A DNA stretch of 64,000 nucleotides from a virus. Under the pieces are notes generated by a model. That model searched no databases, had not been told where the DNA came from, and saw only the letters and a list, made by a program, of their open reading frames with translations. Positions 5,054-63,644 of the stretch are shown here, in pieces (position 1 is the first letter of the stretch; each line of letters begins with the position of its first letter). A program made the position numbers and the translations under genes. The DNA lies in IMG/VR virus record IMGVR_UViG_2931133163_000006. One strand, written 5' to 3'.

Positions 5054-5653
5054 TCAAGCCGCGGGCGCGAGGCCTGCGAAGGCGGCATCGACCTGGGCGA
5101 GTGTCGTGATCGTCGGCGGGCTCGCGTTGATGCCGGCGTCGCAGGCGTCCTCGGCGGTGAAGCACGCCTGGACGTGAGCGAACACGGCGAGCGCCACCGC
5201 CTTCATCTGGTCGGCCGTCAGCTCGATCCAGCCGGAGGCGGCCTTGAACTTGACGGAGGCGACGCCGCCCGCCTGCATCCCGGCGTAGGCATTGGCGACC
5301 ATCGACTGGCTGTCCCGGTCGGTGGCGACCGTCACGCCGTTGACCACCACGCCGCCGGTCTCGACCGCGAAGCGCCGGGCCGCCGCGTAGGCGACGAGAT
5401 CGGCCGCGGAGGGCGCCGCCGCCAGAGCATCGGGGAGCGCCAGTCCCCAGCGCGCCAGCTCCTCGCGAAGCGCGACCAGCGTCGGCGCGCCGCTGGCGTC
5501 GACCGGACAGGGCGTCGGCTCCCAATCGTCGGGCGCGCTCCACGCCTTCAGGGTGGCATCGTCGGCGCCGACGATCGCCCCGCGCGCGGAGGCGAAGATG
5601 TCGGTGCCGTTCGGGAGGCGCCAGTACCAGTCCGAGGCGTTGAAGTTACGCAA
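5054..5653 (-). CDS. Tail fibre assembly protein (DUF4376-like)
   Basis: AAARRFAVETGGVVVNG..VATDRDSQ...FK...GW..LT..Q...VA.AV..HVQACF motif; follows a fibre gene. Confidence 0.75.
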   Translation of the reverse strand: MRNFNASDWYWRLPNGTDIFASARGAIVGADDATLKAWSAPDDWEPTPCPVDASGAPTLVALREELARWGLALPDALAAAPSAADLVAYAAARRFAVETGGVVVNGVTVATDRDSQSMVANAYAGMQAGGVASVKFKAASGWIELTADQMKAVALAVFAHVQACFTAEDACDAGINASPPTITTLAQVDAAFAGLAPAA

Positions 5654-30286: not shown

Positions 30287-30559
30287 TCAGCGCTCGCTTA
30301 CGAGCTCGTCGGCGATCACACGGCGCGTGGTGTAGTGCCGGAACGCCTCGTCCGACGTCGCCGGGACGATGCGGATGCCGAAGCACCGGTGCGCTTCCTC
30401 GGCGGAGAGCTTCGCTACCGGCTTCGACGCCGTCCCCAAGGCGGCAGTCCCGGCGCAGAACTCGCGCTCACCGCGGTGGATCAGCAGCTCCGGCGTCGGC
30501 GCCGGCCGGGCGCGCAGGCCGAAGAAGAGCGCGAGGCGCGCGGCGAGGCGGGACATCAC
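30287..30559 (-). CDS. Hypothetical protein
   Basis: Coupled ORF. Confidence 0.45.
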   Translation of the reverse strand: MMSRLAARLALFFGLRARPAPTPELLIHRGEREFCAGTAALGTASKPVAKLSAEEAHRCFGIRIVPATSDEAFRHYTTRRVIADELVSER

Positions 30560-30936
30560 TGCCTCCAGGCATGGAGGACGCCGCGGGCGTGCTCGCGCTG
30601 CTCCTCGACGAAGTGGTCGCGGAACACGGGCAGGCTGAGGCGGCGCACGACCGCCAGCTCGTCGAGGACGGTCGGGGCGGCCACAACGCGCGTGGCGTCG
30701 GCGACCTCGTTGCCCCGCACAGACCGGATGAGGTCGCGGAAGATGCCGATGACCGAGGGCGAATGGACGATCACGACCGCGCCGTCCTTCGGCAGGTCCA
30801 TGATCATCCGGCGCGTGCGGCCGGCTCGACGCTTTTCTCCGGCGCTCGGCTTACCGGCGCCGAGGCGCTCGGAGGCGGAGTAGCCTTTGGCATCGGCAGC
30901 GACGCCGACGCGCAGGGTGGTGTCCTCGAACGTCAC
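30556..30936 (-). CDS. Hypothetical protein
   Basis: Coupled ORF with plausible codon usage. Confidence 0.55.
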   Translation of the reverse strand: MTFEDTTLRVGVAADAKGYSASERLGAGKPSAGEKRRAGRTRRMIMDLPKDGAVVIVHSPSVIGIFRDLIRSVRGNEVADATRVVAAPTVLDELAVVRRLSLPVFRDHFVEEQREHARGVLHAWRQ

Positions 30937-36634: not shown

Positions 36635-37069
36635 CTACTCCGCCGCCTGCCGCGCCGCTTGGGCGCCGGGCACGCCCAGCCCGATCGCCTTCGCCAAGGC
36701 CGACCGCCGCGCGGCGTAACCGGCGGCGACCATGGGATAGTCGTCGGGCAGCCCGAAGCGTGCGCGGTAGCCGTCCGGCGTCAGGCCGTGGGACGTCAGG
36801 TGCCGCTTCAGCGTCTTGTACGGCTTGCCGTCGAGGAAGCTGATCAGGCTGTCGTTCCGGATCGACCTGCGGATCTCGGTGGCCGTCAGGCGGAAGCCCT
36901 CGGGCTTGGCCGTCGCCGCGGCCGGCTCCAGGTCCTGGAGCGCGACCAAGCCGTCGCGGACGGTGCGCATCAGACCGGGCAGCGCGTCGGCGGTCACGGC
37001 CTGTCGGCCGACGTAGGCCGCCACGATGCCGGCGGTGAGGCTGAGGATGTCATCTTGGGTGTCGGACAC
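36635..37069 (-). CDS. mucR: MucR/Ros-family regulator, variant finger with Ser/Asp at the Cys positions
   Basis: LTA.IV.AYV....V....LP.L...V; ISFLDGKPYKTLKRHL...GLTP..YR..FGLP.DYPMVA..YA..RS.LAK.IGLG. Confidence 0.93.
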   Translation of the reverse strand: MSDTQDDILSLTAGIVAAYVGRQAVTADALPGLMRTVRDGLVALQDLEPAAATAKPEGFRLTATEIRRSIRNDSLISFLDGKPYKTLKRHLTSHGLTPDGYRARFGLPDDYPMVAAGYAARRSALAKAIGLGVPGAQAARQAAE

Positions 37070-47790: not shown

Positions 47791-47804
47791 CGAGTCGAAC
47801 GATG

Positions 47805-47876
47805 CTGTATGTTTACCGCGCGAGTCAACGGTAAACATACAGCTCGGGGCCAGCGTTCCGTGCGGTTAAAATACCG
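47805..47876. promoter_or_regulatory. Three 14-bp operators and divergent promoters between cro and cI
   Basis: CTGTATGTTTACCG (47805), CGGTAAACATACAG (47829), CGGTTAAAATACCG (47863); minus-strand TTGACT at 47823-47828. Confidence 0.8.
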
Positions 47877-47877
47877 C

Positions 47878-48648
47878 GTGACCCAGGCAGGCCTTCCTCA
47901 GCGCGTGCAGCAGCGCCTCGACGCCCTCGGAATGAGCGCTCGCCAAGCGTCTCTCGACGCGAAGCTCAGCAGCGCGTTCGCGACGAACATCCTCAACGGG
48001 AAATCCAAGTCGCCTCGCTCGGAGAACCTCCACAAGCTTGCCGGCGTCCTGGGGACAACGGTCAACTGGCTGGTCAACGCGGAAGGCCCTGAGACGCCAC
48101 AGACGAACGGACATGCGCGGATCGACAATGATCTCGCGCGGGCGATGGAGGAAACGGCACAGCGCGCCGGAGATCTGATGCCGGTCCTGGGGGAGGTCGC
48201 GGCCGGCCGATGGCTGGAGGTAGAACAGGACATAGACGAGTCGCGCTTCGAGCCAGCCCCGATTACGCCGGATCCGCGGTGGCGCCGAGAAGCGCAGTAC
48301 GGTCTCGTGGTGCGTGGAACCTCGCTCAACCTCTACGCCGCTGACGGTGACACGCTTCACTGCCTCGACATCCGCCAGAGCGGCCGCCTTCCCGTGAACG
48401 GCGATCTCGTGATCGTCGAGAAGGTCCGGGACGGTGGCCAACTCCGCGAGCGAACGGCCAAGGCCTACCACGAGGGCGAGAACCAGTTCGTTGAGCTGCG
48501 CGCCTACAGCGATGACCCTCGCTGGGATGAGCCGATCCACGTTCCACATCGGGTCTTCAGCCACGTCATCGAGAAGGGCCTGAGCGTCGAAATCGTCGCG
48601 ATCGTGCTGGGCGCATACAGACCGATGCCCAAAATCCTGCGACGGTAG
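47878..48648 (+). CDS. cI: CI-like repressor (XRE HTH plus S24 peptidase)
   Basis: N-terminal HTH; VAAG cleavage site, VRGTSL catalytic Ser, TAK catalytic Lys; GTG start with no evident SD. Confidence 0.92.
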   Translation: MTQAGLPQRVQQRLDALGMSARQASLDAKLSSAFATNILNGKSKSPRSENLHKLAGVLGTTVNWLVNAEGPETPQTNGHARIDNDLARAMEETAQRAGDLMPVLGEVAAGRWLEVEQDIDESRFEPAPITPDPRWRREAQYGLVVRGTSLNLYAADGDTLHCLDIRQSGRLPVNGDLVIVEKVRDGGQLRERTAKAYHEGENQFVELRAYSDDPRWDEPIHVPHRVFSHVIEKGLSVEIVAIVLGAYRPMPKILRR

Positions 48649-49288: not shown

Positions 49289-49389
49289 AAGCGCTCCTCA
49301 GCTCTGCGTTGACCCAATCGAACGCCGCGGAAGCGAACAAAGCAAGAACGGAAATTTCCGACCCTGTGGACGAGTGTGGATATCGGCCG

Positions 49390-49440
49390 AGGTATTTTTA
49401 CAGCGAAAACGGTTGACGCGGTAGATTTACAGCATACCAT
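49390..49440 (+). promoter_or_regulatory. Early promoter with two operators
   Basis: AGGTATTTTTACAG (49390), TTGACG (49413), CGGTAGATTTACAG (49419), TACCAT (49435-49440). Confidence 0.75.
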
Positions 49441-49889: not shown

Positions 49890-50230
49890 TGGCGGCCGAG
49901 CACTCTTGCACGCCCTGGCATCAGGACAGCGCACGCCCCGAGATGGTGTTCGATGCTGACGGCCGCCTCGTGGTCGATTGCGATCATCACGGCCTGTTTT
50001 CGCGCGAACGGGCCCAGGCCCACGGGGCCCTGGTCGCCGCGGCGCCTGATCTGCTGACGCAGCTCCGCGGCGCGGTCGCCATGATGCGCCTCGCCATCAG
50101 CAGCCTCGATATCGACCCGGACCTCACCGAGATCGAGTTCCGGGCGAACGGCGAGCACATCGCGCGGGTCTCGATGGCGACGCTCCTGGCGAACGGACAG
50201 GCCGCCATCGCGAAGGCGGAAGCCCGCTGA
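49886..50230 (+). CDS. Hypothetical protein
   Basis: TPW...A..L.AAAPDLL..L...A..AIAKA, a common phage motif. Confidence 0.55.
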   Translation: MMAAEHSCTPWHQDSARPEMVFDADGRLVVDCDHHGLFSRERAQAHGALVAAAPDLLTQLRGAVAMMRLAISSLDIDPDLTEIEFRANGEHIARVSMATLLANGQAAIAKAEAR

Positions 50231-50231
50231 C

Positions 50232-50507
50232 ATGGCCGCCCGCGCCCGCCGCCAGCCTGCGCCCGAGCCCGCCCCCGCCGCCGTCCCGGTGCAGCCGGAC
50301 TTCGGTACGTACCGGCTGGAGCAGCTCGGCTCCTGCCAATGCCGCTTCCCGTGCTCCTCGCGTGGGACGGATCACCGCTTCTGCGGGAAGCCGGCCGTCC
50401 AGCATCACCCGAACCGGCCGGCCGTCTGGTGCGCCGACCATCGGCAGGTTGTGTTCGAGGCTTGGCGCCCGGGTGGCCAGGTCCTGCGCCGCGCGGGGAG
50501 GGCCTGA
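50232..50507 (+). CDS. gcrA: GcrA-like C-terminal domain protein
   Basis: LEQL...QCRFPC......HRFCG.......WC..H..V.F matches the GcrA CTD pattern L..L....CRWP......FCG......YC..H...AY. Confidence 0.7.
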   Translation: MAARARRQPAPEPAPAAVPVQPDFGTYRLEQLGSCQCRFPCSSRGTDHRFCGKPAVQHHPNRPAVWCADHRQVVFEAWRPGGQVLRRAGRA

Positions 50508-54041: not shown

Positions 54042-54214
54042 AGCCCGTCGCCGCTCCGCTCGCGATCGCGTCCGCGATCCTGATCCTGCTGATCGTCCTG
54101 GCGATGCTGCTGATCCCGGTCCTGGACGCCGAGCTGCGGCGAGCGACGGCGCGGAAGGCTGCGGCCCTGACCAAGCTCGCAAGCCAAGCGGAACAGAAGG
54201 ATCCCACCGCGTGA
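54038..54214 (+). CDS. Small membrane protein (58 aa, missing from the ORF track)
   Basis: MKPVAAPLAIASAILILLIVLAMLLIPVL...; overlaps at both ends. Confidence 0.55.
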   Translation: MKPVAAPLAIASAILILLIVLAMLLIPVLDAELRRATARKAAALTKLASQAEQKDPTA

Positions 54215-55053
54215 CAAAGCTCAGACCAATCGCCGCCCTGAACTTTCCGGACATCCAGCCGGACGCCGAACTCGGTCCGGCGCCGCAACTGCGGCTGGTG
54301 TCCCCGACCGATCTCCTGGTCGACGAGACCTATCAGCGGGATCTGTCGCCCCAGTCGGTCCAGCTGATCCGCCGCATCGTCGGGTCCTGGCGCTGGCGGG
54401 CGTTCAAGCCGCCGATCGTCGTGTCGACTGAGGAAGGCCTTCACGTCATCGACGGTCAGCACACCGCGATCGCGGCCGCGACGCACCCGGAGATCCAGGA
54501 GATCCCGGTGCTGATCGTCGAGGCCGCGGACCGGCAGAGCCGCGCCGAGTCCTTCGTCCGGCACAACCGTGACCGCCTCCAGGTCACCGGCACACAGATG
54601 CACCATGCCCTGGTGGCGGCCGGCGATGAGACGGCGCTGACCATTGAGCGCGTCTGCCAGCGCGCCGGCGCTCGCGTCGTCCGTTACGCCACAACGAGCG
54701 ACCGCTGGCTCGTCGGTGACACGATGGCGGTGGAGGCCCTGCGCGCCCTGGTCAACCGCCGACACGCCCGGGGTGCTCGCGAGGTCCTGCAGGTCTGCGT
54801 CGAGGCCCGCATGGCGCCCGTGACCGCAGCGTTCCTCAAGGCGGTCGAGGCGATGCTGTTCGCCCCGGAGTTCACCGGCGCCGTTCTGGCTGCCGACATC
54901 GCCACGACGATCCGCGCGATGGGCCCGCAGGCCGAGAAGGAAGCCGTCGTGCTCGCGGTCGCCCAGCGCCTCCCGCGGTGGCGCGCGCTCGCTGCCATCC
55001 TTTTCCGCAACACCAGAAAGGTCCGGAGCCATGGACGTCGAGCGGCGGCTTGA
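54211..55053 (+). CDS. ParB/Srx-like N-terminal domain protein (DGQH motif)
   Basis: L.VD..YQRDLS...I....F.P..V.......VIDGQHT. Confidence 0.75.
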   Translation: MTKLRPIAALNFPDIQPDAELGPAPQLRLVSPTDLLVDETYQRDLSPQSVQLIRRIVGSWRWRAFKPPIVVSTEEGLHVIDGQHTAIAAATHPEIQEIPVLIVEAADRQSRAESFVRHNRDRLQVTGTQMHHALVAAGDETALTIERVCQRAGARVVRYATTSDRWLVGDTMAVEALRALVNRRHARGAREVLQVCVEARMAPVTAAFLKAVEAMLFAPEFTGAVLAADIATTIRAMGPQAEKEAVVLAVAQRLPRWRALAAILFRNTRKVRSHGRRAAA

Positions 55054-55411
55054 AGTGGTGGAGCAGGAGAACCTGCTCTTGCGCGAACGCATCGCCTTTC
55101 TGGAGGCGATCCTGATCGACTGCGCGCGGCTGCCCGTCGAGTGGGGCCTGACGCAGCAGGAGACGCGGGTCTTCGGGACGCTCGTCAACCGTGAGGTCGC
55201 GACAAAGGATGCCGTGATGGCGGCCCTCTACAGCGACCGTGCGGGCTCCGAGGGCGAGATCGAGCCGAAGATCGTCGACGTCTTCGTCTGCAAGATCCGC
55301 AAGAAGCTGAAGCCCTTCGGCATCGAGATCCGGACGGTCTGGGGCCAAGGCTACGCCCTCAAGCCGGACATCAGATCGGCCTACCGGCACGCCTCCAAGG
55401 CGGCCGCGTGA
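55031..55411 (+). CDS. Receiver-less OmpR-type winged-helix protein, CtrA-like DNA-binding domain
   Basis: LT..E..V...L....T...M..LY...EPKIVDVFVCKIRKKL...IRTVWGQGY; N-terminal heptad repeat. Confidence 0.8.
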   Translation: MDVERRLEVVEQENLLLRERIAFLEAILIDCARLPVEWGLTQQETRVFGTLVNREVATKDAVMAALYSDRAGSEGEIEPKIVDVFVCKIRKKLKPFGIEIRTVWGQGYALKPDIRSAYRHASKAAA

Positions 55412-60120: not shown

Positions 60121-60375
60121 ATGGCCTGCGACTGCATCGCCACCATGAACACCGCTCTGGCGGAGCGGAACACCGAGATCCAGCCGACGATCATCTTTGG
60201 CACGGAGGAGCGCCCGGGGTTCACCTGCGTCACCATCGTGACGGAGAAAATCAAGGCGCGCGGCCCGCGGGCGGCGGTGCCGCTCCCGAGCTTCTGCCCG
60301 TTCTGCGGGACGGCCTACGCCTTCACGGATGCCGATGGCGACGCCGGCGGCTCGCACGGGCAGGTGGCGGCATGA
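60121..60375 (+). CDS. Cys-rich small protein
   Basis: MACDC ... FCPFCG. Confidence 0.6.
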
Positions 60376-60647
60376 CAGCGGGCCTGTCCACCGCATGCGA
60401 CGTCTCCTCGGCCGAGGGCGTCGCAGCCGATGAGCTGAAGCAATTCATCGAGCGCCTGGAGCGCCTCGAGGAAGAGAAGGCCGGCATCATGGGCGACATC
60501 AAAGAGGTGTTCGCCGAGCTGAAGGGCCGGGGCTTCGACGCCAAAGCCATCCGCACCATCCTGCAGGTGCGCAAGCAGGACCACAGCGAGCGCCAGGAGC
60601 AGGAGGCGATCCTCGAGCTCTACATGCAAGCGCTGGGAATGGCGTAG
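60372..60647 (+). CDS. gapR: GapR-like nucleoid protein (DUF2312/UPF0335)
   Basis: [33 protein letters not shown]...RK.D..ER.EQEAIL.LY..ALGM. Confidence 0.92.
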
Positions 60648-62215: not shown

Positions 62216-62533
62216 GTGGGACGGCCGCAGCTCATCCCCGAGGTCGGCGACGTGCCTGTGGCGAAGGTGGCGTCGCGCATGGGGTTCGCCGGCGTGCGCG
62301 AGTTCGAGTCGGCGCTGCCCGAGCTGCGCCGGCGCGGCTTCCCTGCTGCCGACCCGACCTCCGGCCACTACTGCATCGAGGCGATCGACCGCTGGCGCCG
62401 GCGGCGTCATCCCGATCTCTTCCCCGAATTGACAGTCCTCGGCGAGGCGCGTGACGCTTCGGTCGCCAGACAGCGACTCGCGGAGAGACGAACCGGTGGG
62501 CACCGTGAAGATCCCCTACCTCGTCGTTCGTGA
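62216..62533 (+). CDS. xis: Excisionase-like DNA-binding protein
   Basis: VA.RMG....F...LP.L..RGFP..DP.SG.Y...AID.W; directly upstream of and overlapping the integrase. Confidence 0.6.
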   Translation: MGRPQLIPEVGDVPVAKVASRMGFAGVREFESALPELRRRGFPAADPTSGHYCIEAIDRWRRRRHPDLFPELTVLGEARDASVARQRLAERRTGGHREDPLPRRS

Positions 62534-63644
62534 GCGGCACGGCAAACGGTTGGCCTACTGGTGCCCGACGCCGAAGATGAAGGCTGCGGGGTTCTCGCTG
62601 ATCGCGCTGGGCCCTGACGGGCCTGATGCCTGGCGCGATGCCAGGACTTGGAACGAGCGCTGGCAGGCGCACCGCAAGGGCGTGAAGGCGTCGGAGAAGC
62701 CGAAGTGGCCGCGTGGCTCGCTGGGCGAGGCCTATGATCGCTACCGAGCCACAGAGGGCTGGAACCGCAAGCAAGCGCGCACCCGCGAGGACTGGGAGCG
62801 GGGCTGGCGCTACATCGCCCCGATCTTCGGCGACGTCGCCCCTCACACGGTCGACTACGACCTGATCGATGCTTGGTACGCCGACCTGATCGAGTCGGCC
62901 GGCGTGCGCGAGGCGCACCGGGCCATGAAGATCTGGCGCGCGCTCTGGGTCGTGGCGGCCGCCATGAGCGGCGGCCGGCCGTTCTACTGCGCCCGCGGCG
63001 CGGACCCTTCGCTCGGCGTCCGCCGCGTCACACCCAAGGCGCGGGCGGCGATCTGGCAGGAGCACGAGCTGCGGCGGATCATCCACCGCGCCTGGCGCGA
63101 GGGCTATCGTGGCCTCGCCTGCCTCGTGTCGATCATGTGGGACACCGCCTTCTCGCCGGTCGACGCGCGATCCCTCACGGCCGGGCAGCTCGTGCGCGTC
63201 GGTCGCTTCGGAGCCTTCGAGATCGGCCGGGCTAAGACGGGGCAGGCGGCGATCGGCACGCTGTCGCGGCGGTCGGCCGTGCTGATGCGGGCCTACCTTG
63301 AGGGCCTCGGCCTGCGGCCGTTGCCGTCCACGCCGCTGTTCCGCACCCGGGAAGGAGCCCCGTATCGGAAGAACTCGCTCGCCGAGGACTTCCGCGATCT
63401 GCGTCGCTTGGTCGATCCGAAGGAGACTCGACAGATGCTCGACATCCGGCGGTCGGTCGCGATCGAGGCGAGGGCAGGGGGCGCGTCGCGGGAGCACCTC
63501 GGCGCCAAGCTCGCCAACTCGATCGCCGCCAACGCGGAGCTGGAGCGGACCTACCAGCCTGTCGATATCGATGCCGTTCAGGCGGTCGACCGCGCGCGGC
63601 TCAACGCCCGGAGGAGGGCGCGTGCCACGAGGGCCTCGAAGTGA
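62496..63644 (+). CDS. int: Tyrosine recombinase/integrase with atypical active-site motifs
   Basis: N-terminal domain, core-binding domain, F.I.R.KTG, PLF, C-terminal Tyr (ERTY); TAFSPVD and LDIRRS replace TG.R and H..R. Confidence 0.8.
   Translation: MGTVKIPYLVVRERHGKRLAYWCPTPKMKAAGFSLIALGPDGPDAWRDARTWNERWQAHRKGVKASEKPKWPRGSLGEAYDRYRATEGWNRKQARTREDWERGWRYIAPIFGDVAPHTVDYDLIDAWYADLIESAGVREAHRAMKIWRALWVVAAAMSGGRPFYCARGADPSLGVRRVTPKARAAIWQEHELRRIIHRAWREGYRGLACLVSIMWDTAFSPVDARSLTAGQLVRVGRFGAFEIGRAKTGQAAIGTLSRRSAVLMRAYLEGLGLRPLPSTPLFRTREGAPYRKNSLAEDFRDLRRLVDPKETRQMLDIRRSVAIEARAGGASREHLGAKLANSIAANAELERTYQPVDIDAVQAVDRARLNARRRARATRASK

What the first reader, a model, noticed from the sequence alone, without database searches (positions are those of the whole stretch)
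54211..55411. Receiver-less CtrA-like DNA-binding protein with a coiled-coil N-terminus, overlapping a ParB-like gene
Seen: EPKIVDVFVCKIRKKL...IRTVWGQGY closely follows the CtrA recognition region as I recall it (ELKIIDVFICKLRKKL...IETVWGRGY). The receiver domain is replaced by a heptad repeat (LEVVEQENLLLRERIAFLE). The gene overlaps the 3' end of a ParB/Srx-fold DGQH protein. Inference: a phosphorylation-independent, self-dimerising CtrA mimic could occupy CtrA boxes (TTAA-N7-TTAA), which in Caulobacter include sites at the replication origin. The ParB-like partner may load or modulate it.
Basis: partly seen in the sequence, partly recalled or inferred. Interest (0 to 1): 0.72.

Follow-up and report, generated by a model that had tools for sequence, protein, structure and literature searches.

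The report
Prophage leucine-zipper CtrA look-alike with ParB-fold partner
A Methylobacterium-type prophage carries a small protein that keeps the DNA-reading part of the bacterial cell-cycle master regulator CtrA. A self-pairing helix replaces the phosphorylation switch, and the gene is nearly always coupled to a ParB-fold gene, so the phage probably reads CtrA-type sites without the host's signal, though no binding has been shown.

Summary
Window 55031-55411 (+) encodes a 126-aa protein with an N-terminal heptad helix and an OmpR/PhoB-type winged helix, and no receiver domain. It overlaps by 23 nt the end of a 280-aa ParB/Srx-fold DUF6551-type gene (54211-55053).

In a tree of 105 DNA-binding domains, this family joins true CtrA and phage CtrA-like proteins. 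All 38 other OmpR-type domains from three alphaproteobacterial genomes fall outside (UFBoot 100 / SH-aLRT 98). The recognition helix is near-identical to CtrA's.

The family is large: 827 representative clusters at E<=1e-10. It is mostly viral or prophage and keeps a GCN4-like zipper with Asn at an a position. About half of the members end in Ala-Ala, like the ClpXP tag of CtrA.

The ParB-fold gene lies directly upstream in all 10 distinct close loci found through the wHTH. Starting from the ParB-fold gene instead, the pairing holds in 7 of 10 loci, and one fused form exists.

Receiver-less phage CtrA copies were already noted in the literature (RDJLphi1). The zipper plus DUF6551 module is, as far as I found, undescribed.

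CtrA-box binding, action at the replication origin and a loading role for the partner remain inference. The prophage has no TTAA-N7-TTAA site.

The parts
54211..55053 (+). ParB/Srx-fold DUF6551-type protein, 280 aa, GTG start, motif VIDGQHTAIAAA, ends in AAA
   Evidence: PHROG 1033 matches at 1.4e-16; Pfam DUF6551 scores 19.9 bits, below its cut-off; TIGR03187 DGQHR is weak. Homologues are named 'DUF6551 family protein'. AF2 pLDDT is 91.6 and Foldseek finds ParB, Noc, KorB and Srx.
55031..55411 (+). Receiver-less CtrA-type winged-helix protein, 126 aa (P0001)
55031..55053 (+). 23-nt overlap of the two genes in different frames, suggesting translational coupling
   Evidence: The same overlap or a gap of 10-14 nt is seen in homologous loci.
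55037..55117 (+). N-terminal helix, aa 3-29, with a heptad a/d pattern at positions 7, 10, 14(Asn), 17, 21, 24, 28
   Evidence: AF2 helix H3-29. Conservation over 262 family members: L17 96%, L24 94%, V/I21 91%, N14 74%.
55142..55360 (+). Winged-helix DNA-binding domain, aa 38-110
   Evidence: Pfam PF00486. Foldseek matches OmpR/PhoB DNA-binding domains at rmsd about 2-2.5 A.
55268..55318 (+). Recognition helix, aa 80-96, KIVDVFVCKIRKKL..., 11 of 14 identical to the M. planeticum CtrA (a related species) and 13 of 14 to some true CtrAs
55400..55408 (+). C-terminal Ala-Ala-Ala tail, a possible ClpXP tag
   Evidence: -AA ends 140 of 262 family members against 1 of 38 other OmpR-type regulators. 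The CtrA precedent is in PMC4433202.
49413..49440 (+). Only sigma-70-like promoter match of the + arm, overlapped by two operator-like direct repeats (49388-49433); likely early promoter of the operon that holds the pair
   Evidence: This is a consensus match only.
47878..48648 (+). cI-like repressor (HTH_3 plus Peptidase_S24) marking the immunity region upstream
50109..50507 (+). GcrA-like protein (C-terminal part only) in the same operon
   Evidence: PF07750 scores 27.6 bits against a cut-off of 26.9, matching profile positions 54-146.
60372..60647 (+). GapR-like DNA-binding protein in the same operon
   Evidence: PF10073 scores 113.6 bits.

Best explanation
This is an early prophage gene pair. 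The 126-aa protein is a CtrA-derived winged helix whose phospho-receiver has been replaced by a short parallel leucine zipper. It should therefore be a constitutive dimer that needs no CckA-ChpT phosphorelay.

Its recognition helix, the loop before that helix and the wing carry the residues that set CtrA apart from other OmpR-type regulators. It therefore most likely reads CtrA-type TTAA half-sites. The prophage has no such boxes, so the likely targets are host CtrA-controlled promoters, and possibly origin sites. There it would either activate or compete with CtrA~P.

The C-terminal Ala-Ala suggests turnover by ClpXP. The translationally coupled DUF6551 ParB-fold protein is probably an NTP-binding partner that acts on DNA together with it. 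The nearest analogy is the KorB clamp with the small KorA dimer.

Shown: the architecture, CtrA-clade membership of the domain, conservation of zipper, helix and tail, conservation of the gene pair, and the early-operon position. Inferred: dimerisation, DNA specificity, the host as target, proteolysis and any partner interaction.
For: Domain identity:
- Pfam Trans_reg_C passes its cut-off.
- The best NCBIfam model is the CtrA equivalog, at 39.6 bits; the next, TctD, scores 24.8.
- In the tree, {CtrA + this family + phage CtrA-like proteins} separates from 38 other OmpR domains with UFBoot 100 / SH-aLRT 98, and in 100% of 200 bootstrap trees.
- P0001 shares 10 of 16 CtrA-specific positions. K80, I81, F85, C87, K88 and W104 are shared by 61-96% of the family.
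- Some true CtrAs carry the identical FVCKIRKKL.

Conservation pattern:
- The recognition helix is the most conserved segment, with mean top-residue frequency about 0.81 against about 0.51 for helix 1. This holds across prophages of many host genera and argues for one shared target.
- The zipper a/d positions are conserved, with Asn at an a position in 74%, and the AF2 model shows a helix at aa 3-29.
- -AA ends 53% of the family against 1 of 38 control regulators. In CtrA, changing the terminal AA to DD stabilises the protein (PMC4433202).

Gene pair:
- The DUF6551 gene lies directly upstream in 10 of 10 distinct close loci found through the wHTH (12 locus ids, two of them duplicates of the same contigs).
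- The pairing holds in 7 of 10 loci found through DUF6551.
- P0208 is a fused DUF6551-zipper-wHTH protein.
- Phage DUF6551 ParB-fold proteins bind NTP in a preprint (10.1101/2025.10.10.680097).

Context:
- The same prophage carries GcrA-CTD, GapR and MucR homologues.
- All named hosts are CtrA-bearing Alphaproteobacteria.
- A related host genome holds 40 TTAA-N7-TTAA sites against 10 for the control pattern.
Against: - No binding data exist.
- There is no CtrA box in the 64-kb window, and none consistently near the module in 15 related loci. No site is linked to the protein.
- A symmetric N-terminal zipper may impose a half-site geometry different from the head-to-tail arrangement of phosphorylated OmpR-type dimers.
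- The N-terminal beta-sheet platform of the OmpR domain is missing.
- P0001 has a 2-residue insertion in the loop before the recognition helix that only 11-15% of the family carries.
- 6 of 16 CtrA-specific positions are not shared.
- DUF6551 also occurs without this partner, or fused to a DnaA_C-type HTH.
- The single fused form could be a frameshift artefact.
Confidence: 0.55

Rival explanations
1. It is a regulator of the phage's own genes, for example an early-to-middle or late activator or a co-repressor. It descends from a captured CtrA domain but now reads phage-specific sites that differ from the CtrA box.
For: It sits in the early operon just after the immunity region in four prophages. 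An earlier scan note (e1-3280108) describes another receiver-less OmpR-type protein at the head of a late block. In Rhodobacterales phages the CtrA-like domain is fused or adjacent to a GafA-like DUF6456 domain, and GafA is a direct activator of gene-transfer-agent genes.
Against: The recognition helix is almost invariant across prophages that otherwise share few genes, and it matches CtrA. Phage-specific operators would be expected to drive divergence. No repeated candidate site was found near the module. Only the cI-type operators at 47804-47843 and 49388-49433 stand out, and they look unrelated.
Confidence: 0.25
2. The winged-helix dimer is mainly a sequence-specific anchor for the ParB-fold NTP switch, in a DNA-handling job for the phage genome such as segregation, condensation, protection or replication control, and is not a transcription factor.
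For: The pairing is tight and one fused form exists. DUF6551 is alternatively fused to another DNA-binding domain, DnaA_C, which fits a modular 'anchor plus ParB-fold' design. The fold matches ParB, Noc and KorB. The neighbours are often DNA methyltransferases and replication genes.
Against: No ParA-type ATPase lies next to it. The prophage is integrated, with an integrase beside nuoA. The ParB arginine patch GERR is replaced by DGQHT. No parS-like repeat was found.
Confidence: 0.15
3. It is a decaying fragment of a captured ctrA gene with no function.
For: It is short and lacks both the receiver and the beta platform.
Against: There are 3803 representative clusters at E<=1e-3 and 827 at E<=1e-10, and the whole length aligns, zipper included. 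The reading frame is intact with coding-type GC3 of 0.91. The AF2 model is confident and synteny is conserved.
Confidence: 0.02

Closest known systems
CtrA, the alphaproteobacterial cell-cycle response regulator (NCBIfam NF045991)
   Same: The DNA-binding domain falls in the same clade (UFBoot 100). The recognition helix, the DEPE-type loop and the wing Trp are shared, and both have a C-terminal Ala-Ala.
   Different: There is no receiver domain and no phosphorylatable Asp. A leucine zipper takes the receiver's place, and the beta-sheet platform is absent. The score is 39.6 bits against the 350-bit cut-off. The gene is phage-borne.
Receiver-less CtrA homologue of roseophage RDJLphi1 (gp37), noted by Hynes 2016 (PMC5026251) and Fogg 2019 (PMC6363796); also the DUF6456-CtrA-domain fusions of Paracoccus phage vB_PmaS-R3 and Rhodobacter RcPescado-type phages
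   Same: These are phage-encoded CtrA-type winged helices without a receiver. They fall in the same clade in the tree.
   Different: They have no zipper. They are linked to GafA-like DUF6456 and to DUF6477, not to DUF6551. Their hosts are Rhodobacterales. Identity is only 38-46% over the domain.
KorB-KorA of plasmid RK2 (a ParB-fold CTP clamp plus a small dimeric DNA-binding repressor; PDB 8qa9)
   Same: A ParB-fold NTP-binding protein is encoded together with a small dimeric site-specific DNA binder on a mobile element. KorB appears among the fold matches.
   Different: There is no sequence relation between the small partners (wHTH against KorA HTH). The P-motif is DGQHT, not GERR. An interaction here is only inferred.
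DndB / DGQHR and DUF262 branch of the ParB/Srx fold
   Same: It has a DGQH-type motif in place of the ParB arginine patch. NTP binding is reported for DUF6551 and DndB-like proteins.
   Different: The motif is DGQHT, not DGQHR. TIGR03187 scores only 17 bits against a cut-off of 58.85. There is no dnd context.
GCN4-type parallel leucine zipper
   Same: It has about 3.5 heptads with Leu at d, Val/Ile at a, and one Asn at an a position.
   Different: The similarity is in sequence pattern only. Oligomeric state was not measured, and the zipper is joined to a winged helix, not to a basic region.

Membership tests
OmpR/PhoB winged helix (Pfam Trans_reg_C, PF00486) | Profile score above the curated cut-off | tested here: met
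   34.9 bits against 26.2, aa 40-110.
OmpR/PhoB winged helix (Pfam Trans_reg_C, PF00486) | Three-helix core with a C-terminal beta hairpin wing | tested here: met
   AF2 shows H42-53, H59-66, H80-96 and E100-103/E107-110. Foldseek matches ArlR, SaeR and PhoB domains at rmsd 2.0-2.7 A.
OmpR/PhoB winged helix (Pfam Trans_reg_C, PF00486) | N-terminal four-stranded beta-sheet platform of the effector domain | tested here: not met
   The model has no strands before helix 1. Residues 1-29 form one helix.
CtrA (NF045991 equivalog) | Receiver domain with a phospho-accepting Asp, and a full-length score of at least 350 bits | tested here: not met
   The protein is 126 aa with no receiver. It scores 39.6 bits and only profile positions 150-222 match.
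CtrA (NF045991 equivalog) | DNA-binding domain in the CtrA clade, apart from other OmpR-type domains | tested here: met
   The split has UFBoot 100 / SH-aLRT 98. Mean identity is 43% to CtrA domains and 26% to the others.
CtrA (NF045991 equivalog) | CtrA-specific residues of the recognition helix and wing | tested here: met
   K80, I81, F85, C87, K88 and W104 are shared; 10 of 16 signature positions overall.
CtrA (NF045991 equivalog) | Binding to TTAA-N7-TTAA | not testable with these tools
   The window has no site. A related host genome has 40 against 10 for the control. Binding needs EMSA or ChIP.
CtrA (NF045991 equivalog) | C-terminal Ala-Ala needed for ClpXP turnover | tested here: inconclusive
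   The sequence ends KAAA, and 53% of the family ends in AA. Proteolysis itself was not tested. The precedent is in PMC4433202.
Phage receiver-less CtrA homologues (RDJLphi1 gp37 type) | Phage-borne CtrA-type domain lacking the receiver | tested here: met
Phage receiver-less CtrA homologues (RDJLphi1 gp37 type) | Linkage to GafA-like DUF6456 and to DUF6477 (the rcc01866 homologue) | tested here: not met
   The neighbours here are DUF6551 and small unknown ORFs. DUF6456 is seen only in the Rhodobacterales phages.
ParB/Srx fold, DUF6551 (PF20188) | ParB N-terminal-domain fold | tested here: met
   Foldseek finds ParB, Noc, KorB, PadC and sulfiredoxin at E down to 1.3e-4.
ParB/Srx fold, DUF6551 (PF20188) | Pfam DUF6551 score above the cut-off | tested here: inconclusive
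   P0002 scores 19.9 bits against 26.8. Homologues at 52-59% identity carry PF20188 or the NCBI name 'DUF6551 family protein'.
Canonical ParB CTPase | GERR arginine patch (Box II) and a partner ParA with parS | tested here: not met
   The motif is VIDGQHTAIAAA in 120 of 120 homologues. There is no ParA nearby and no parS-like repeat.
Parallel dimeric leucine zipper | Heptad a/d hydrophobic pattern with a buried Asn at an a position | tested here: met
   Positions 7, 10, 14(N 74%), 17(L 96%), 21(V/I 91%), 24(L 94%) and 28(L 79%).
Parallel dimeric leucine zipper | Dimer in solution | not testable with these tools
   Only single-chain prediction was available.

The most novel reading that the evidence does not exclude
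The pair is an NTP-gated 'anchor and clamp' device. The zipper-CtrA dimer docks on host CtrA boxes without phosphorylation and recruits or is locked by the DUF6551 ParB-fold switch. Together with the phage's GcrA-CTD, GapR and MucR copies, it would form a coordinated toolkit that rewires or arrests the alphaproteobacterial cell cycle early in infection or induction. ClpXP would clear both proteins through their Ala-Ala tails.
Probability: 0.2. Interest if true: 0.85.

Novelty: new variant of a known kind. Interest (0 to 1): 0.62.

Why it matters
[quoted passage not shown] A widespread phage family keeps CtrA's DNA-reading surface, makes it signal-independent through a zipper, and couples it to an NTP-binding ParB-fold protein. 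That would be a direct route for phages to override the host programme.

The family also offers a natural, compact, constitutively active CtrA-type domain for structural work on CtrA-DNA recognition. I found no CtrA-DNA complex among the solved structures returned. It also gives the uncharacterised DUF6551 branch of the ParB fold a testable partner and context.

Tried and rejected
- Second copy in the window. I asked whether the 126-aa ORF at 30556-30936 (-) was a second copy. It is unrelated.
- Own genome. None is held, so host CtrA and CtrA-box counts come from M. planeticum and two other genomes that carry the module.
- CtrA boxes. I searched for TTAA-N7-TTAA and TTAACCAT in the window and in 15 related loci. 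There are none in the window, one 1-mismatch hit far away, and no consistent site near the module. TTAA is low, 5 against 12.7 +/- 3.6, but this is weak and may reflect general genome bias.
- Repeats. The repeat scan of 47-64 kb gave only cI-type operator candidates.
- Profile-based locus search in viral contigs failed because no conserved stretch was long enough.
- RDJLphi1 gp38 is not related to the ParB-like protein.
- A PDB sequence search with the ParB-like protein found nothing. Only the fold search did.
- The terminator-like hairpin at 54975-54996 inside the ParB-like gene was judged to be chance (9 found against 5.0 +/- 2.3 expected).
- A homodimer or complex prediction could not be run, because the tool folds single chains only.

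Full report
**What is there**

The window is about 70% G+C. It holds a lambdoid prophage with these parts:
- Nu1/GpA terminase, portal and capsid on the minus strand.
- A cI-like repressor at 47878-48648.
- A plus-strand early operon that starts near a promoter-like site at 49413-49440.
- A tyrosine integrase at 62496-63644.

An identical copy of the region lies in a 6.66-Mb contig, with nuoA just beyond the integrase end.

Inside the plus-strand operon, 54211-55053 encodes a 280-aa protein (P0002) and 55031-55411 encodes a 126-aa protein (P0001). They overlap by 23 nt in different frames. Independent gene calls on the same DNA give the same coordinates.

**The small protein**

- Pfam Trans_reg_C matches aa 40-110 above its cut-off.
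- An AF2 model built on 49 homologues has pLDDT 91.3. It shows one long helix (aa 3-29), then helices 42-53, 59-66 and 80-96, a hairpin at 100-110 and a short helix at 112-118.
- Foldseek places the domain on solved OmpR/PhoB effector domains at rmsd about 2-2.5 A.
- There is no receiver domain. The four-stranded beta platform that normally precedes helix 1 is also absent.

**Is it CtrA-like?**

- Among NCBIfam equivalog models the CtrA model scores best, at 39.6 bits, with TctD next at 24.8. It is far below the 350-bit membership cut-off, because only the C-terminal 73 profile positions match.
- I extracted all Trans_reg_C domains from three alphaproteobacterial genomes that carry the module: M. 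planeticum, a Stappia and a Mesorhizobium.
Some true CtrAs carry FVCKIRKKL, identical to P0001.
- A maximum-likelihood tree of 105 domains (78 columns) was built. It separates the 38 other OmpR-type domains from a group of 11 CtrAs, 49 members of the small family, 3 phage homologues and 4 other short forms. Support is UFBoot 100 / SH-aLRT 98, and the split appears in all 200 bootstrap trees. The order inside that group is not resolved.
- Sixteen positions separate CtrA from the other domains. P0001 shares 10 of them. Those in the recognition helix and wing (K80, I81, F85, C87, K88, W104) are shared by 61-96% of the family.

**The family**

- A word-indexed search found 177 relatives of similar length. 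The top hits are from Methylobacterium, then Rhodobium, Amorphus, Labrenzia/Stappia, Mesorhizobium and Bradyrhizobium. JGI often auto-names them 'CtrA'.
- The exhaustive search of 50%-identity representatives gave 3803 hits at E<=1e-3 and 827 at E<=1e-10. Nearly all of the best 150 are about 105-165 aa and aligned from residue 1 onward.
- ESM Atlas clusters nearest to it are 52-92% viral.
- Over 262 members the a/d heptad positions are conserved: 7 L/V/I, 10 L/V, 14 Asn 74%, 17 Leu 96%, 21 V/I 91%, 24 Leu 94%, 28 Leu 79%. An Asn at an a position is the pattern of parallel dimeric zippers. That last statement is established knowledge of GCN4-type zippers and was not tested here.
- The recognition helix is the most conserved part of the protein, with mean top-residue frequency about 0.81 against about 0.51 for helix 1.
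- The consensus of the loop before it (DDEPExKI) matches CtrA's MDEPELKI.

**A tail nobody asked about**

- 140 of 262 members, and 60 of 141 non-redundant representatives, end in Ala-Ala. P0001 ends KAAA.
- Only 1 of 38 other OmpR-type regulators in the three control genomes does.
- In Caulobacter CtrA, changing the C-terminal alanines to aspartates, or deleting the last three residues, stabilises the protein against proteolysis (PMC4433202).
- The ParB-fold partner also ends in AA in 52 of 120 homologues.

**The partner**

- P0002 matches PHROG 1033 'ParB-like'. It matches Pfam DUF6551 and TIGR03187 DGQHR only weakly.
- Its homologues are named 'DUF6551 family protein'.
- The AF2 model (pLDDT 91.6) matches ParB, Noc, KorB, PadC and sulfiredoxin.
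- The motif VIDGQHTAIAAA, or a close variant, is present in 120 of 120 homologues. It stands where ParB has its GERR arginine patch.
- A 2025 preprint reports NTP binding (CTP/ATP) by phage ParB-fold proteins with DUF6551.

**Is the pair conserved?**

- In the 10 distinct close loci found through the small protein (12 locus ids; L036 and L041 are IMG/VR copies of the L001 and L006 contigs), the DUF6551 gene ends at or within a few bases of the wHTH start. In two more distant loci (three ids, L044 duplicating L009) the order is reversed.
- Three loci reached through DUF6551 proteins all have Trans_reg_C immediately downstream.
- In an even sample of 301 genomes of the same order, 19 have a DUF6551-like match. 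Of the 8 full-length matches, 4 have the wHTH next door and 1 is cut by a contig end. The other 3 have a different neighbour or a fusion.
- Across the class the module is rare, in 2 of 151 genomes.
- P0208 is a single 461-aa protein with DUF6551, zipper and wHTH. P0297 and P0322 fuse a coiled coil and a DnaA_C-type HTH to DUF6551.

**Context**

- In four prophages the pair follows the cro/cI-type switch. It lies near DNA methyltransferases, GapR, GcrA-like and replication genes.
- This prophage also encodes a GcrA C-terminal-only protein, a GapR homologue and a Ros/MucR homologue.

**What is not there**

- There is no TTAA-N7-TTAA or TTAACCAT in the window and no consistent box near the module in related loci.
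- At the host density seen in M. planeticum (40 boxes in 5.9 Mb, against 10 for the control pattern), about 0.4 boxes would be expected in 64 kb. The absence is therefore uninformative about specificity. It does mean that no phage site can be pointed to.

**Prior knowledge**

- Hynes et al. 2016 and Fogg 2019 noted that roseophage RDJLphi1 has a CtrA homologue without the receiver, lying between gafA and rcc01866 homologues.
- I confirmed that gp37 is Trans_reg_C, flanked by DUF6456 and DUF6477. In the Paracoccus and Rhodobacter phages, DUF6456 and the CtrA-like domain are fused.
- Mascolo et al. 2022 showed host CtrA sites in phage genomes.
- I found no paper on the function of a phage CtrA copy, on the zipper form, or on its link to DUF6551.

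**Verdict**

The CtrA affinity of the domain and the conservation of the pair are shown. Dimerisation is strongly suggested by sequence. DNA specificity, host targeting, proteolysis and partner interplay are inferences. The finding is a new variant (zipper plus DUF6551 partner) of an already noticed but unstudied kind, the phage receiver-less CtrA.

Noticed in passing
window 55400-55408 and 55042-55050; families P0003-P0270 and P0271-P0390: Both proteins of the pair end in Ala-Ala far more often than expected. This holds for 53% of wHTH family members and 43% of DUF6551 homologues, against 1 of 38 control regulators. It suggests ssrA/CtrA-like ClpXP tags on both.
   Followed up: partly
P0297, P0322 (Methylobacterium gnaphalii and a metagenome): Here DUF6551 is fused at its N-terminus to a charged coiled coil plus a DnaA C-terminal-type HTH (PF08299). 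The ParB-fold module therefore pairs alternately with DNA-binding domains of two replication or cell-cycle masters, DnaA-type or CtrA-type.
   Followed up: partly
L047:3740-4540, L049:3659-4264, L048:2614-4608: In Rhodobacterales phages the CtrA-like domain is fused to a GafA-like DUF6456 domain (vB_PmaS-R3, RcPescado) or lies next to one (RDJLphi1). In RDJLphi1 a DUF6477 gene follows it. This is a second, different partnership for a captured CtrA domain.
   Followed up: partly
window 47804-47843 and 49388-49433: A perfect 15-nt inverted repeat (GCTGTATGTTTACCG / CGGTAAACATACAGC) lies just upstream of the cI-like gene. Two related direct repeats overlap the only promoter-like site of the plus arm. 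These are probably the repressor's operators.
   Followed up: no
window 50109-50507, 60372-60647, 36635-37069: The same prophage encodes a GcrA C-terminal-only protein, a strong GapR homologue and a Ros/MucR homologue, plus an MT-A70 methyltransferase. Together they form a set of cell-cycle and nucleoid regulator copies.
   Followed up: partly
L002, L005, L037, L039: Some prophages carry two tandem wHTH paralogues beside the DUF6551 gene. In L002 and L039 the extra copy follows the first and matches only the winged-helix part of the query; in L005 and L037 it lies between the DUF6551 gene and the main copy and aligns from near residue 7-9.
   Followed up: no
L016, L017 (Alphaproteobacteria MAGs): A 155-aa ORF has a true-CtrA-like DNA-binding domain but no recognisable receiver, and it nests among genuine CtrAs in the tree. 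It may be another independent receiver loss or a mis-called start.
   Followed up: no
window, whole: TTAA occurs only 5 times in 64 kb, against 12.7 +/- 3.6 in dinucleotide shuffles. One occurrence (47866) lies 9 nt before the cI-like start codon.
   Followed up: no
window 5381-5476 (-): ARAGORN calls a 96-nt tRNA-Ala(GGC) inside a coding-looking ORF (5054-5653). It is probably spurious.
   Followed up: no
P0161, P0174: These roughly 350-aa proteins place the zipper-wHTH unit after an unrelated 220-aa N-terminal domain with an FEWDD...AA..YR..QAR motif. This is a third architecture.
   Followed up: no
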